64,000 nucleotides of DNA from Ruditapes philippinarum (lineage: Eukaryota): assembly GCF_026571515.1 (NCBI RefSeq), contig NW_026857505.1:1-64000 (forward strand), in the 5' to 3' direction. Numbering within the stretch: position 1 is the first letter of the stretch; each line of letters begins with the position of its first letter. Below are positions 36,001-57,000 of the stretch, in pieces. The position numbers are program-made.

Positions 36001-39000
36001 GGCTGGTCTGGATCCATGCTGGTCGCAAACCCATTATGTTGGTTTTGTCGTGACGCGGCTCATATTCTTACGATTAATCCACAGGCAGAATAATTAATGT
36101 ATATATTTATGCCGTGATGTACATGTGAATGAAATCATATACCATTTAAATACTTCTTAAAAACATGAAACCTATTCAAATGCTTAAAATGATAACATTT
36201 TGTTTGTTATAACATAATTTTTATATATGTGTAGAATATTTAAAAAAAAAAAAAGAAACCCCGGTGTATTCAGAGTCATTTTTGCGCAAAAGTATCATTT
36301 TAAATTTCAAGTCAATTCATGTATGCATTAAAATTACTAGATAACACTAGCAGGATGTTCAGCATTCTCTCAGTTACGACAGTTGCAGGCAGTGAATGAT
36401 AAAACACAGCCGCCGTTAAATTATAGCAGACAGATGTAACTTTGGTCGACTGTGTGGAAAATAGGGCAATTATCAAATGATAAGTATATTTATATTGTAT
36501 ATCAAATGTAATGATTCTGAACAAAACGGCATTTATACGAAAATTCATACTACCTTTCAGATAAAAATCGCAAATTTGTAAGCACCTCGTCTATAATTTC
36601 CTTTTCAGAAGAGTACACTTTCTGAAGTTCTGCAAGTGTATGTCTCTCTATTTTCTTCAGATGTAAATCTATTTCTATTCTCACCAAGTCTATATCTCTC
36701 TTCACAAGCCCTTCTGAGAATTTCAAAAGACTTAAACATTCCATAGCTTTTTGTTTTGTACATGATACAAGTCTATTTAGTTTGTCCATATTTCCTCTAT
36801 ACCCATCCATTACGCTGAAGAAATCTGACTAATGTAAAACTATAATAGCATAATTATGAAACGATCTGATTTTTATTTTCTGATAAAACTATTTTTATTA
36901 ATCATCGCAGTGGTGAAATAGTCATTATATTGTGTATACCATGCGTTAATATAACATATCCCATGTATGTTCTATTATATATAAACATTATCATATTTAT
37001 GCAAATATATATACGACAATCGCTTTAATTATAATAAAGACTTCTGAAGGTGTAATGTTTTCGTAAGTGACCTGATCGCTAAGTATAAACTGACCGGTCA
37101 AGGCGTCATAAATTCATTCATTACATTCACTTAATAGGATAAGCAAATGGATAAGTCCTGAAGTCCAATTAAAAGATATATTTCACAAATGTGTGATCAG
37201 AAACGATACAAATGTGACACGGTCGTAATAAGAAAATACTGATTTTTTTAAAAAAAAGAACATATTTTCACATTTCTTATATGTTTTGTATAGTGTGAAT
37301 TAATCATCATTCATAATTTGCTCACTGCATCTTTCATAAATTATGCGGCAATTCAAGTTAAAGTTAGAACATACTAGTACTAAGTAAAATCTTATTAGTT
37401 TATAATTATAGAATTTATTTTAGTTCGATTTTGTAGGAAGCTATAAGCTTATATACGCACTTTCGAATCCGTTCGTGGTTTTGAGCAATAAGTGTAAAAT
37501 TTCTTGCTCAAGGAAACAACGACTTGCCCCTGACAGGGTTTGAACTCATGCGTATAGCACTAATTAGAATACTAGTGTTAACCACTCGGCCATGTCGCCA
37601 CTTAATTAAAATCTTATTAAGGGGAGGTGCTTCGAGTGATAACGAGCGCAATAAAGATTTTGCTTAATATTTTCTAACTGACTTAGAACATAGCCTACAT
37701 TGTCATCCAACGGAATATATAACTGTTAGCATAAAGTAGTTTTCCTTAATACTGTTCTAAAATTCACTATGATAAAGGAGAATATTGAACGCGATTTATT
37801 TCGTGTTTTAATTGTTATATTAGAGCCGTATTTTATTATTGTGGACACAAGCAAAAACTGATAATAAGAATCGAAGCTGTCCAAACTGTATAAACGGTCA
37901 TTTGTATTGAGAAAAAATAAATACACACTTCACAACACAAAACACCATAATAAGAACTTTACTCAGAAGGTTTGAGTTGTGAGAGAGTCCACATATAACA
38001 TACGTGTCAGATTAATGATGCCAAATGCATTTCATTACATTTTTAATTAGAAATGACTCACTTCCTTTCAATCGTCGTTTTATGTCACAATGTGAAGGAA
38101 ATACAGGTACGAAGTTGTCAAGTCTGCACCCTTTTATGCTACGTTTGGCGATCATTAAAATTTTAAAACTCTGTTTAGTTTTAAATGGCCATAAAGGACA
38201 AGGTTAAAGAAACAAAGTATTTCCAATATTTTTGCTGTTTACTAGTACTTGATAAAATACAATATATTGTAGATTATTTTGTGTTTTATAGAATACAGTG
38301 TTTAAGATCTGAACTAAATTTAACACAGTCTAAACTATGGTTATTTTCATTTGTTATTTGAAAGAAAAAATATACAGAAGCTCCAAATATAATAAAATAT
38401 CAACAACAACAACAAAAAACATCAGAAAAAAATCAGATCAGAACAAAAATACAAGAAAAATAAATCTATTATAAAAACTTCACGGAAGCAAAATTAAAAC
38501 ACTAGTTACGGTCAGTAACACAAACTTTTGTTTTAGTACAGTATGTGATATACTAGTATCCTGTTTAATTGTAAATTACTTCCATGGTTTAACATACATC
38601 CATGCAGCATCTATGGCTCCTGAGTTATTTGAGAGATCCGTTTCATGTTTCGGAATGTCGGAGTCGTGGTCCTCGGCACTTGCTATGGCCATTGCCGTCG
38701 CTATTGCATCCCCAGTAAATCCCGCGTGAAAGTTCATCACAGCGTCTCCATGCATACCTTGTGAACTACTAGCTGGCGAGACTTGCTCGTAAGTTTCGGG
38801 AATATTTTCAACGACTTTTGTGGGTCTTTCCCTGTTCATAATTTTTATTTGGCATTTTTTGGGTTTTGGGCGTTTGCGTAAACTTTTTGAAATTATATTT
38901 CCGGGTACGTTTTTTTCGGAGTCATGGGCCTTTTCGAAACCCATTTCGGGGACCATTTTTAAATTTTGGGAGATGTCGTATTTGGGGGTATGGAAACGGG

Positions 39001-54000: not shown

Positions 54001-57000
54001 ACTTTTTTATCCTTATCACACCATTATACCCTATTTCTTTGGAAATTTTGCCTCAAGAGCCTAGTCCATGTCTAAGTTATTACCTACAACTTAAGATCAT
54101 TTACCTGTACACATTTTAGCAAATCTGTCCCCAATATCAGAGTTCTCCTTCAGAAACAATTGTCCCTTCTGTGATCCATGAATACTTATTTCACCAAATG
54201 GACCAACAGTTACTAGCATAGACTGAACACCCCTTGAACTGACCTGTTCAAGCTGAAATAAATAATGGACATTTTAAACACCTTTAAGACTTATATATGA
54301 CCACTCTCTTGTCATTTGCTATATTGCTAATCCTGGTAGCCCTATGTAATATTATCATTTGCAGACATCTAATTTAGCACTGGCCTGGTGGCCCATGGCC
54401 TAGTGAGTGTAAATCAGTTCAGGCCAGTGAAATTTTTAAGAAAATGTAGTTAAATACATAGTAGAATAAATTCAAAACTGGAATTCCGGTCTGGAAGTTC
54501 AAAATCTTAAATTCATTGACTGCATTGGGCACTCAACAGTTTAATAATTTGAATTAAGTAATACAAGTTGCCTTTAAAAAGCATTCCCTAATCCCTATAG
54601 GGCTGTATAGCAACATGCATTGTAAACCCTGCATTCATTTCAAAATAATTAAATAGGATTTTATTTAAGTTATAATTTGGAAGGAAGACCCAATTTTAAT
54701 CTCTGACCACTAAGACTGTGTCTTGCCTACAACATAGTCCCATTATAATGAACAATTTGAGTGAATTAGGTAATTACTCAAAGTTTTCTATAAAAACCAT
54801 CATAGAATATCAAAGAATTAAATGGACTAAACACACAAAAATTATCACTTGTTTTTTTTATTAATTACCTTCTACCAAGAACAGGAACAAAGAACATAAA
54901 ACACCAGTGTCACTGTATACTTTAACCCAACTTACTATCGCTAACAATTTGAAATATAGTTGAACGTAAGTTTTGTCTGCTGAAATAAATTCAGATGTTT
55001 TAAATTTGCAGAAACTTAAAATATTTCCAAGTAAAAAGAATAAACCAATTTCATTTGTCAGCCATTGCAATTTGTAGATAAAGATTTATTCAAGATTTTC
55101 CAACCTGACATATCAGAATGACCTACCATTTCTTGAACTTGGTTTATTGTGGTTTGAGTGTCCTCTGTATCCATTGGTTTCCAGTTATGATTGTCCAAGC
55201 TTGACCCTTGACCAGCATTGGCATGCAAGTTGCCAGTAACCTGGTTGTTGGCCATGTTTGATGATAATCTATTTTTGGTAACATCTGATTCCATGTTTTG
55301 CATGAATCAATATGTTTTATTTAACCCTTAAAAGACAATGTTTACCTGAAAATAAATGATTAATTATTAATTTTTGTAAATAAAGTTTTAAAAATAACAA
55401 AGGTATCTTTTCATTATAAATTTATGTTGAAATTAAAATGGTATATATTTTATCATTAAATGTTTAAAACAATTTTCCTGCATTGCACATAAGTGCCGAC
55501 TTAGCATGATGTTCACACTTATATAATTACCGTTAATTTGCAGCACGCATATATTGTATCAATTAAAAACAACAGCCTGTCTTTACTTATTTATATTAAT
55601 TAACTTTATATGATTAAAAAATCTCTTACAAAGTTTTGAATTTGAAATACCAATGATTTTTTTTTATTTTGCGAACACAAATTTTGTCCGCATAAAGACA
55701 GACAAAAACATTGCCAGAATGAAATACATATATCCTTAACTACATACAGCTGTTGTCAATTTAGTACCGTCATTGTATTTTTAAAGACAAATTCATTTAA
55801 TCCGTTTGTTACTTATATAAGTTTTCCATATTTAGAAAGTCCAAAAATGTGTCATGAAACGTAATAAAATTCATTGGCATTCAATCATAAATTACTTATT
55901 GGCTAATTAATTATTTTTTTTTTGAATATTAAAGTATAAATCCAATTACACATAATGTTTATAAACTTCACCAATGCCCAAAATAATCATCAATCAGTCT
56001 ACACTATATATCTATATCGTCCGCTTTTTTCCTCTTTGTCCGCTTTAGACGTCCGCGTTTTAGACAGGCCCAAAATAACACATGCATTTTCGACTTCCAA
56101 TGGAAGTTCCATATAATTTTGTAAAGTTTCGTACAGCTAGCCAACGCATTGTGTCCTGGCTAGCCGTACGTGACTCATGTACGGCTAAACTTTTGGCTAG
56201 CCTTTGACTAGTCAACAGTTCAGATTTGACAGAGCTCAAGATTTGCATTGTTCATAATAATTTCCGATTATTTTTATGTCAGTAAAACATTCAACGGGAG
56301 TCACAGTTTAACCACATTCTAAAGCTTCCATAAAACCTTTATCACACAGCAATTAAATAGGGATTTCTTTCTTGTCCTGCAGTTTCTATAATTTCTAAAC
56401 AAATTTCTGGGTCAAGCAAACAACGATTAACATGTCAATATCGTTATATCACCTGTGTTCACAGACTTGTCTTATATTATATATGCATATGTAAATGGAG
56501 GCGTAATGTGCTAATTGTTTCCTTACATTAATAATTCTAACTTTGATGACATGTATACGAAGTGATTGCAATAAAAACTTTAATCGTCTCACCACAATTC
56601 AACCGGAACTACTTTAATCAAGGCCATGGGCCACTATTTTTTTTGCAAATACCACAAAGATATTTTTCAAACAACAAGATTCTTCACGGAAACATACATG
56701 TACATATGATCTGATATATATGATATTCTGTAATCATGCAAAGTTTCTGTGCTAGTTTCCTTTTTTATTCTTTTTTTATCGCCTTTGTAAAAATATGCAA
56801 TACATTACTGTACAGCGGTATGCCTAAAATGAGAAAGTGAGATTTTTGACGAAAGTGAGCGAGAGTGACTTTTAAAATTTGAATTGTACCGTTTTAATAG
56901 AATTTTACGGTGAATTTTCTGTTTGTAGACGTATATTATTAGCAAATAATTTTTTTTTTCAAAAATAATCCCTATGATGATTAATCCCGATGATGATTCA

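What the first reader, a model, noticed from the sequence alone, without database searches (positions are those of the whole stretch)
38576..55345. Candidate alternative-last-exon switch: one leader exon, two unrelated DNA-binding modules
Seen: a minus-strand exon (55345-55105) carries an ATG and 66 codons and ends at a phase-1 donor. Two large terminal exons downstream each start at a strong phase-1 acceptor that completes the same Asp codon (ttttcag|AT): 52378 (transposase-derived domain) and 41002 (C2H2 array). I could not identify a separate ATG exon for the zinc-finger exon. The 44.5-55 kb stretch looks continuously T-rich on the minus strand and CpG-poor, like one transcription unit. Known: Drosophila lola and mod(mdg4) splice a common N-terminus to alternative DNA-binding last exons. 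Inference: this locus may switch between a zinc-finger isoform and a transposase-derived isoform. Caveat: 41-44.5 kb is noisy and could hide a private promoter (CpG-richer patch ~43320-43400) or an extra exon (~42930-42583).
Basis: partly seen in the sequence, partly recalled or inferred. Interest (0 to 1): 0.75.

Follow-up and report, generated by a model that had tools for sequence, protein, structure and literature searches.

The report
Shared leader, two alternative last exons

Summary
The core idea survives, but the anatomy needed correcting. The minus-strand gene has two leader exons, not one. Exon A runs 55345-55127, with its ATG at 55294 and a phase-0 donor ATG|gtaggt.

Support comes from other clams:
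- Mercenaria has two annotated proteins, "isoform X2" and "isoform X1", with an identical 105-residue A+B leader. One continues into the exon-C module, the other into the zinc-finger array.
- A Mactra model also joins A+B to the zinc fingers.

Exon C is strongly conserved in Mya and Dreissena. Residues 181-417 resemble the N-terminal half of multicopy arthropod DUF7869 proteins. A transposase origin and DNA binding are inferred, not shown.

The leader domain is predicted to homodimerise.

Weaknesses:
- There is no transcript evidence for this genome.
- The zinc-finger exon carries about 15 frameshifts and 2 internal stops. It lies in a 38.7-44.6 kb stretch with homopolymer-inflated patches, so assembly error is the likelier cause.
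- The zinc-finger exon lies outside the CpG-poor block.

The closest analogue is bat ZNF112/KRABINER. I file this as a new member of a known kind.

The parts
55127..55345 (-). Leader exon A. An acceptor-like ttttcag precedes 55345. An in-frame TGA lies at 55309-55307. ATGs lie at 55303 and 55294; the second matches MESDV of the orthologues and has the better context, aacATGg. The exon ends GAAATG|gtaggt in phase 0. The coding part 55294-55127 is 56 codons.
   Evidence: Sequence. tblastn of P0002 residues 1-57 to 55294-55124, 68% identical. Pfam: 0 families.
55105..55126 (-). They are intronic by comparison with the orthologues.
   Evidence: The peptide VGHSDMS read from these bases is absent from P0002, P0019 and P0022, which go ...QVQEM|LEQ....
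54105..54252 (-). It runs tatttcag|CTT GAA CAG ... ACA G|gtaaat, 49 codons plus 1 base. It is the phase-1 donor that gives the G of the junction Asp. With the end of exon A it encodes a conserved domain of about 65 residues that is predicted to homodimerise.
   Evidence: Sequence. tblastn gives 96% identity to P0002 residues 57-105. Whole-library search: 5 proteins with E<=0.001. Pfam: 0 families. Complex-prediction result.
50994..52378 (-). Alternative last exon C (proximal). The acceptor is ttctgttttcag|AT, followed by 460 codons and a stop at 50996-50994. Residues 1-195 are Q/N/G/F-rich and of low complexity. Residues 196-420 form a strongly conserved domain related to the N-terminal half of DUF7869 proteins.
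   Evidence: Structure model pLDDT is 86-96 over most of the domain.
50372..50377 (-). First AATAAA after the exon C stop, about 620 nt downstream. It is a candidate proximal poly(A) signal. A second one lies at 49818-49813.
   Evidence: Motif scan. Use of these signals is not shown.
41003..50993 (-). The remainder of the 13.1-kb B-to-zinc-finger intron. It holds a 165-167-bp tandem array (46198-47472) and two homopolymer-inflated patches (41301-42300, 43001-44600). No coding exon is supported in it.
   Evidence: The orthologues go directly from ...KMCT to DIIDIAG/ELIEISA.
38576..41002 (-). Alternative last exon with the C2H2 array (distal). The acceptor is tttctttttcag|AT. It is homologous end to end to P0018 and P0019, up to ...AAWMYVKPWK and the stop at 38578-38576. 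The frame is broken by about 15 frameshifts (10 in 40325-39897, 5 in 39131-38813) and 2 internal stops (39218, 39058).
   Evidence: Pfam zf-C2H2. The orthologues have about 14 finger-like motifs, of which about 7 are readable in the window's open frames.
41016..41018 (-). An in-frame ATG five codons upstream of the zinc-finger acceptor (MISFS|D). It is a possible private start codon if a transcript begins inside the intron.
   Evidence: Sequence. P0018 starts MSFSD at the matching place.

Best explanation
**Model.** One minus-strand transcription unit has two constitutive leader exons, A (55345-55127) and B (54252-54105), and two mutually exclusive last exons.
- Splicing from the exon B donor (54105, phase 1) to the proximal acceptor 52378, with cleavage at a proximal poly(A) site, gives a protein of about 566 residues. 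That length is arithmetic only: (168+148+1382)/3. This protein carries a low-complexity region and a conserved domain derived from the N-terminal half of a mobile-element-like (DUF7869-family) protein.
- Skipping that exon and splicing to 41002, 13.1 kb from the donor, gives a protein with the same leader and an array of about 14 C2H2 fingers.
- The shared leader encodes a small helix / beta-hairpin / helix domain that probably dimerises. The two isoforms could therefore form homo- and heterodimers.

**Shown.**
- The exon boundaries, by homology.
- The A+B+C join, seen in spliced transcript-sized contigs of other species and in three named gene models.

**Inferred.**
- The A+B-to-zinc-finger join, which rests on gene models of two other clams only.
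- Poly(A) site choice.
- Dimerisation, which is a model prediction only.
- DNA binding by exon C.
- That the frame breaks in the finger exon are assembly errors.
For: **Shared leader in other species.**
- P0002 and P0019 of Mercenaria share an identical 105-residue leader and then carry exon C or the fingers. Both lie on a contig of 120,499,105 bp.
- A search with residues 1-125 of P0019 returned 4 of 50 candidates: P0019, P0002, Mactra P0022 (leader + fingers, 70% identical) and P0006 (leader + exon C).
- P0006 (571 aa on a 1961-nt contig) and P0013 carry A+B+C on contigs too short to hold the introns. That join is therefore seen in processed RNA-sized sequence.

**The junction in the window.**
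- The exon B donor ACAG|gtaaat matches 8 of 9 consensus positions (consensus recalled, not from a call). Both acceptors have 9 of 11 pyrimidines.
- Every junction codon in the orthologues is Asp or Glu, that is G|AN.
- Homology of the finger exon starts exactly at the acceptor (DIIDIAGTQRQE). The first Met inside the exon is about 74 residues in, so translation must begin upstream of the acceptor.

**Exon C.**
- Its domain (residues 196-420) is 183 of 225 identical to Mya, 185 of 225 to Dreissena and 207 of 225 to Mercenaria.
- It aligns to residues 164-424 of the 803-aa beetle protein P0016: 87 of 264 identical, pairwise E 1e-30.
- The C-terminal half of P0016 falls with DUF7869 clusters, 27 of 30 named Atlas hits.

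**Leader dimer** (Mercenaria P0002 residues 38-106, two copies).
- Score 0.86, best of 3 controls 0.01. The runs agree in at least 97% of contacts and the partner's pLDDT is at least 85.
- In the tool's calibration on microbes, the mark was reached by 21 of 30 proteins solved as pairs of one chain and 0 of 23 solved as single chains.
- On eukaryotes it was reached by 17 of 29 (animals 7 of 16), but by only 1 of the 7 with no older solved relative, and by 0 of 30 single chains.
- The model supports binding; it does not show it.

**Frame breaks look like assembly error.**
- All three strongly homopolymer-inflated patches of the 64-kb window lie in 38.7-44.6 kb.
- 11 of the 15 frameshifts are single extra bases.
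- Three stretches remain open with no stop: 41002-40331 (224 codons), the central 39959-39271 and the 3' end 38829-38576.
Against: - There is no RNA evidence for this genome. The leader-to-finger join rests on two computed gene models, and a predictor may choose that join simply because the finger exon lacks its own ATG.
- In this assembly the finger exon cannot be translated as it stands: 15 frameshifts and 2 internal stops. The 10 frameshifts in 40325-39897 lie in sequence with normal homopolymer content, 22% of bases in runs of 3 or more, so real decay is not excluded.
- The CpG-poor block (o/e 0.335) ends near 44 kb. The finger exon has o/e 0.88 and 41-44.5 kb has 0.65. This fits a different germline transcription or methylation state for the distal part.
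- The NCBI names of the Mya and Dreissena exon-C proteins carry no isoform label, and no finger protein with the leader was returned from those species.
- An in-frame ATG sits 5 codons upstream of the acceptor (41018). P0018 starts at the matching place (MSFSD). P0021 starts MFDIIGTQ, which an unspliced read through an AG acceptor cannot give. Private starts therefore remain possible.
Confidence: 0.6

Rival explanations
1. These are two separate genes in tandem. A+B+C is complete in itself. The zinc-finger exon is transcribed from a private promoter or a short private 5' exon inside the 41-51 kb interval, or starts at the intronic ATG 41018. On this reading the shared-leader models in Mercenaria and Mactra are read-through or prediction chimeras.
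For: - There is an in-frame ATG at 41018, and P0018 starts at the matching MSFSD.
- P0021 starts MFD, which cannot come from reading through an AG acceptor.
- CpG o/e rises from 0.335 (44.5-55 kb) to 0.65-0.88 over 41-44.5 kb and the finger exon.
- The Mya and Dreissena exon-C proteins are named without isoform labels.
Against: - The same kind of read-through start (MSYLLFLLS|EHDVW in P0001, and likewise in P0007) is seen at exon C, which certainly has upstream coding exons. Such starts say nothing about promoters.
- Two annotations made by different groups give the same A+B-to-finger join, and it has the right phase.
- The conserved coding sequence begins exactly at the acceptor.
- A search for the donor pattern implied by the P0021 start found 0 matches against 1.81 expected by chance, which is uninformative.
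Confidence: 0.2
2. In this species the zinc-finger exon is a decaying pseudo-exon. Only the A+B+C isoform is functional here and the switch has been lost.
For: - 15 frameshifts and 2 internal stops over 779 aligned codons.
- Ten of the frameshifts lie in 40325-39897, where homopolymer content is normal.
Against: - The breaks are clustered in two stretches. About 670, 690 and 250 bp of flanking coding sequence remain open and conserved, with 67% identity to P0018 over the finger core.
- 11 of the 15 events are one-base insertions.
- Non-coding sequence next door (41.3-42.3 and 43.0-44.6 kb) shows the same inflation, and nowhere else in the window does so as strongly. This points to local consensus error.
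Confidence: 0.17
3. One reading: a single leader exon 55345-55105 whose phase-1 donor at 55105 splices directly to 52378 or 41002.
For: A GT follows 55105 and the phase fits both acceptors.
Against: - All orthologues end exon A at ...QVQEM and continue with the 49 residues of exon B.
- CAG|gttgga has T at +3 and matches fewer consensus positions than ATG|gtaggt (consensus recalled).
- A direct join would delete the most conserved part of the leader.
Confidence: 0.02

Closest known systems
ZNF112 / KRABINER of vespertilionid bats, and host-transposase fusion genes in general (Cosby et al., bioRxiv 10.1101/2020.05.07.082677; passages read)
   Same: - A mobile-element-derived coding exon sits in the last intron of a zinc-finger gene.
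- It is used as an alternative ending after the same upstream host exons, so one leader goes with either a C2H2 array or the element-derived domain.
- The element-derived part keeps the N-terminal (in that paper, DNA-binding) portion.
- Both transcripts co-exist.
   Different: - The leader here is not KRAB. It is an unnamed domain of about 65 residues with no Pfam match.
- The donor element is not a mariner. It is a DUF7869-family protein whose transposase nature is unproven.
- Only the N-terminal half is kept.
- The exon is old and strongly conserved, being shared with Mya and Dreissena.
- Which part is host and which was captured is not settled.
- The paper's Table S3 and other supplements were not seen.
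CSB-PGBD3 and SETMAR of primates (named in the passage of Cosby et al. read; PMC3902484 seen as a search listing only)
   Same: An element-derived ORF within or after a host gene serves as an alternative 3' terminal exon with its own poly(A) site.
   Different: Those use piggyBac and mariner transposases kept nearly whole. The alternative product there is not a zinc-finger array.
Drosophila lola and mod(mdg4) (eLife PMC11426971, passages read; NAR PMC13490949, abstract start in the listing)
   Same: Common 5' exons encode a self-associating domain and are joined to alternative 3' exons encoding different DNA-binding modules.
   Different: - The shared domain in the flies is a TTK-type BTB, said to be arthropod-specific. 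None is found here.
- The flies have 20 to more than 30 variable exons, against two here.
[quoted passage not shown] Here both exons lie on the same strand in order, so ordinary cis-splicing suffices.

Membership tests
Host-transposase fusion gene born by alternative splicing (KRABINER type) | The element-derived domain is encoded by an exon distinct from the host-domain exons. | tested here: met
   Exon C (52378-50994) is a single exon separate from A, B and the finger exon.
Host-transposase fusion gene born by alternative splicing (KRABINER type) | That exon derives from a transposase. | tested here: inconclusive
   - Residues 181-417 are 33% identical (E 1e-30) to residues 164-424 of the 803-aa beetle protein P0016.
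- The rest of P0016 matches DUF7869 weakly: 23.4 bits against a cut-off of 26, and 27 of 30 named Atlas neighbours.
- DUF7869 has no assigned function, and no paper holds the term.
- A catalytic DDE-like signature in P0016 is my recollection only.
- Pfam finds nothing in exon C itself.
Host-transposase fusion gene born by alternative splicing (KRABINER type) | The fusion and parental transcripts co-exist and share upstream exons. | tested here: inconclusive
   This is met in gene models of Mercenaria (P0002 and P0019, identical 105-residue leader) and half met in Mactra (P0022). It cannot be tested for this genome because no RNA data are available.
Host-transposase fusion gene born by alternative splicing (KRABINER type) | The element-derived exon lies within an intron of the host gene. 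| tested here: met
   Exon C lies between the exon B donor (54105) and the finger acceptor (41002) on the same strand.
Host-transposase fusion gene born by alternative splicing (KRABINER type) | The captured domain is kept under constraint. | tested here: met
   183 of 225 residues are identical to Mya and 185 of 225 to Dreissena in the domain, against 104 of 183 and 103 of 185 in the low-complexity part. dN/dS was not computed because no orthologous DNA was available.
lola / mod(mdg4)-type loci | The common exons encode a BTB (TTK-type) domain. | tested here: not met
   Pfam finds 0 families in exon A and exon B, and none in full-length P0002 at E<=1.
lola / mod(mdg4)-type loci | Many (20 or more) alternative 3' exons. 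| tested here: not met
   - A scan of the minus strand from 54.1 to 20 kb for phase-1 acceptors opening 80 or more codons gave 11 rows. Only 52378 and 41002 have homologues.
- Only two kinds of leader-bearing protein were returned.
lola / mod(mdg4)-type loci | Isoforms are made by trans-splicing. | not testable with these tools
   Both last exons lie downstream on the same strand, so cis-splicing is sufficient. RNA data would be needed.
C2H2 zinc-finger transcription factors | A tandem array of C2H2 fingers. | tested here: met
   zf-C2H2 at E 1.6e-26 with 4 stretches in 39219-40001. The orthologues have about 14 finger-like motifs. The array is interrupted by frameshifts in the window.

The most novel reading that the evidence does not exclude
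This would be an old (order-level or deeper) molluscan gene with three features:
- A previously undescribed dimerisation domain of about 65 residues is shared by two isoforms.
- One isoform carries about 14 C2H2 fingers. The other carries a domesticated N-terminal domain of a DUF7869 mobile element.
- Homo- and heterodimers would then couple two unrelated nucleic-acid-binding specificities under the control of last-exon choice.

It would be a lophotrochozoan counterpart of both KRABINER and the BTB loci of flies, and it would arise from a mobile-element family that nobody has characterised.
Probability: 0.25. Interest if true: 0.65.

Novelty: new member of a known kind. Interest (0 to 1): 0.45.

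Why it matters
If the switch is real, it shows outside vertebrates and insects how a mobile-element exon dropped into the last intron of a zinc-finger gene becomes a permanent second ending of that gene. It also gives a handle on the uncharacterised DUF7869 element family. The shared leader would be a new small dimerisation module.

In practice the case is a caution. The right donor was found only through orthologues. A 6-kb stretch with patches of poor assembly mimics both "noise" and a broken gene.

The arrangement is already present in public gene models of Mercenaria. The discovery value therefore lies in recognising what it is, not in the locus itself.

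Tried and rejected
Rejected; the orthologues use 55127 and then exon B.
A phase-1 acceptor at 42928 opens 106 codons, but Pfam finds nothing. The orthologues have no residues between exon B and the finger exon.
- **CpG-richer patch at about 43320-43400 as a promoter.** It lies inside a homopolymer-inflated patch, so nothing can be read from it.
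- **A third alternative module.** cccag|AT at 35588 would again give G|AT and 404 codons inside the 438-aa frame 34375-35691. That frame, however, has its own ATG (35582) and a better acceptor in another phase, tatttatttcag|TG. No leader-bearing protein of that kind came back.
- **Private 5' exon ending ATGTTYG|GT, guessed from the P0021 start.** 0 matches against 1.81 expected by chance; uninformative.
- **Naming the leader and exon C.** Pfam gave 0 families. A PDB sequence profile gave a best E of 0.43. The AlphaFold2 model of P0002 had mean pLDDT 60.7 and pTM 0.39, with the exon-C domain at 86-96. Foldseek against the PDB gave 0 of 434 listed matches at E<=0.001. The top weak rows were winged-helix parts of Cdc6/Orc1 (E about 1) and CENP-B (E 1.8), which are hints only.
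- **Remains of the C-terminal (DUF7869) half of the element in the window.** tblastn with P0015-P0017 found only the exon C stretch.
- **Literature.** No paper holds LOC123563042 or DUF7869. Two searches combining transposase, alternative last exon, zinc finger and bivalve, and domesticated transposase with mollusc, showed nothing on this locus in their listings.
- **Not checked.** Paper supplements are closed.
- **Joined model.** The joined window model was not built or searched. Exons were searched one by one.

Full report
**What is at the coordinates.** The window holds no N. By its best named hits it is DNA of a heterodont clam: exon C is 86% identical to Mercenaria mercenaria. Nothing looked human.
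- An ATG at 55303 follows an in-frame TGA, and 66 codons plus one base lead to a GT at 55104.
- ttctgttttcag|AT at 52378 opens a 461-codon frame.
- tttctttttcag|AT at 41002 opens a 227-codon frame. C2H2 fingers lie further on (Pfam zf-C2H2, E 1.6e-26 in 39219-40001).

**The leader has two exons.** I searched the window's exons one at a time and did not build or search a joined model. Product lengths below are arithmetic only.
- Exon C alone returned 17 proteins at E<=0.001 out of 7996 scored candidates. Fourteen were close (E<=6e-161), including named proteins of Mercenaria (564 aa), Mya arenaria (566 aa) and Dreissena polymorpha (573 aa).
- These proteins are about 100 residues longer than exon C. 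tblastn of Mercenaria P0002 onto the window places residues 1-57 at 55294-55124, residues 57-105 at 54252-54106 (96% identical) and the rest on exon C.
- The sequence shows GAAATG|gtaggt after 55127 in phase 0. It also shows a missed exon, tatttcag|CTT...ACAG|gtaaat at 54252-54105, of 49 codons plus one base.
- The likely start codon is 55294 (MESDV, as in Mercenaria). A+B+C then codes (168+148+1382)/3 = 566 residues.

**Does the same leader go to the zinc fingers?**
- The non-finger first part of the finger exon (227 aa), searched among longer proteins, returned 4 of 761 candidates.
- One is Mercenaria P0019, "zinc finger protein 708-like isoform X1", 838 aa. Its first 105 residues are identical to those of P0002, "LOC123563042 isoform X2". 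It then continues ...KMCT|DIIDIAGTQR, the exact start of the window's finger exon. Both proteins are listed on a contig of 120,499,105 bp.
- A search with residues 1-125 of P0019 returned 4 of 50 candidates: P0019, P0002, P0006 (leader + exon C) and Mactra antiquata P0022. P0022 is 834 aa and reads ...KMCT|ELIEISADRQE followed by fingers.
- These are computed models.
- Contig-derived proteins that start just upstream of an acceptor (MSFSD in P0018; MSYLLFLLS|EHDVW in P0001) occur at both last exons. They tell nothing about promoters.
- P0021 starts MFDIIGTQ, which an AG acceptor read through cannot give. A private 5' end in some species therefore remains possible. A pattern search built on that guess found 0 matches against 1.81 expected by chance.

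**State of the finger exon.**
- A frameshift-aware alignment of 41003-38576 to P0018 aligns 779 codons, 482 of them identical. It needs 15 frameshifts: 10 in 40325-39897 and 5 in 39131-38813. Eleven are single extra bases. It also crosses two internal stops.
- In 39270-38830, 57% of bases lie in runs of three or more, against 18-26% in the other coding stretches.
- Across the window, the only strongly inflated patches are 38701-39300, 41301-42300 and 43001-44600 (sequence).
- I therefore take the breaks for local consensus errors, at about 70%.
- Real decay of the exon is the alternative. The 40.3-39.9 kb breaks lie in sequence of normal composition.

**What the modules are.**
- *Exon C, first part.* Residues 1-195 are Q/N/G/F-rich and of low complexity.
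- *Exon C, domain.* Residues 196-420 are 183 of 225 identical to Mya and 185 of 225 to Dreissena.
- *Exon C, relatives.* Residues 181-417 align to residues 164-424 of an 803-aa firefly protein (33%, E 1e-30). That protein's C-terminal half groups with DUF7869 clusters. Nearest Atlas clusters are multicopy arthropod "hypothetical proteins".
- *Exon C, interpretation.* This fits a mobile-element origin in which only the N-terminal half was kept. No tool, however, names a transposase. Pfam, a PDB sequence profile and a fold search gave nothing significant: 0 of 434 fold matches at E<=0.001, with the weak top rows being winged-helix DNA binders. "DNA-binding" is therefore an inference for exon C.
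- *Leader, family.* Exon B has 5 relatives at E<=0.001 in 1.84 billion representatives, one of them a chance repeat protein. It has no Pfam family.
- *Leader, fold.* In the model it forms helix 43-61, strands 67-72 and 78-83, and helix 94-103.
- *Leader, dimer.* Two copies of Mercenaria residues 38-106 scored 0.86 against a best control of 0.01. The runs agreed in at least 97% of contacts and pLDDT was 85. The interface is symmetric, with strand 65-73 pairing with itself.
- *Leader, calibration.* The mark was reached by 21 of 30 solved one-chain pairs and 0 of 23 single chains on microbes. On eukaryotes it was reached by 17 of 29, but by only 1 of the 7 without an older solved relative, and by 0 of 30 single chains. 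The model supports, but does not show, self-association.

**How it most likely works.** This is a choice of alternative last exon.
- The proximal exon C has a good acceptor, and AATAAA signals lie 620 and 1180 nt past its stop.
- Skipping it lets the exon B donor reach the finger acceptor 13.1 kb away.
- CpG depletion covers 44.5-55 kb (o/e 0.335) but not 41-44.5 kb (0.65) or the finger exon (0.88). The stretch upstream of exon A is at 1.01.
- In invertebrates, methylation is found mainly in gene bodies and is linked with transcription (PMC3985014 and PMC3249382, listing abstracts only).
- On that basis the proximal isoform may be the germline or default product and the distal exon a rarer or separately regulated one. 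This also counts mildly for the two-gene rival.

**Comparison with known systems.**
- The closest analogue is bat ZNF112/KRABINER. There a mariner inserted in the last intron of a zinc-finger gene is spliced to the upstream exons as an alternative to the fingers. This is one of 94 host-transposase fusions said to arise mainly by alternative splicing (bioRxiv 10.1101/2020.05.07.082677, passages read; supplements not seen).
- lola and mod(mdg4) share the logic of a common self-associating domain with variable DNA-binding ends. They differ in three ways: a TTK-type BTB domain, 20 to more than 30 variable exons, and trans-splicing (PMC11426971, passages; PMC13490949, listing). The first two features were tested here and not met.

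**Verdict.**
- This is a new member of a known kind. It is already implicit in public gene models but, by four searches, is not described in the papers held.
- Which half is host and which was captured is open.

Noticed in passing
window 38701-39300, 41301-42300, 43001-44600: These patches have 45-65% of bases in homopolymer runs of 3 or more, against a window median of 26%. All lie within one 6-kb stretch, and they look like uncorrected long-read consensus. Any gene call in 38.7-44.6 kb should be treated with care.
   Followed up: partly
window 46198-47472: A tandem array with a 165-167-bp unit, about 7-8 copies at 86-93% match, inside the long intron. It contains GGGGCGGGGCC-like cores.
   Followed up: no
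window 57764-59619 (+): Two overlapping frames of a non-LTR-like retroelement on the opposite strand, just upstream of the leader (RVT_1, E 1.2e-28). The promoter of the gene must lie between it and exon A, or beyond it.
   Followed up: no
window 34375-35691 (-): A 438-codon frame with no Pfam family. It has its own ATG (35582) after tatttatttcag|TG. By coincidence a cccag|AT at 35588 would also fit the exon B phase. No leader-bearing protein of this kind was found.
   Followed up: partly
window 9086-9820 (+): A frame matching glycosyltransferase family 11 (fucosyltransferase-like), E 1e-35.
   Followed up: no
window 24726-27483 (+): A 787-codon acidic, serine-rich frame without a Pfam family. 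It is preceded by a short repeat coding MKAGTA-like units. The surrounding 20-33 kb is a second CpG-poor block, with o/e 0.12-0.65 per kb.
   Followed up: no
protein P0024 (unnamed record, first 101 residues identical to Mya P0010): A 216-aa protein that keeps the leader but skips two internal parts of exon C. This suggests further splice variants or model artefacts within exon C in Mya.
   Followed up: no
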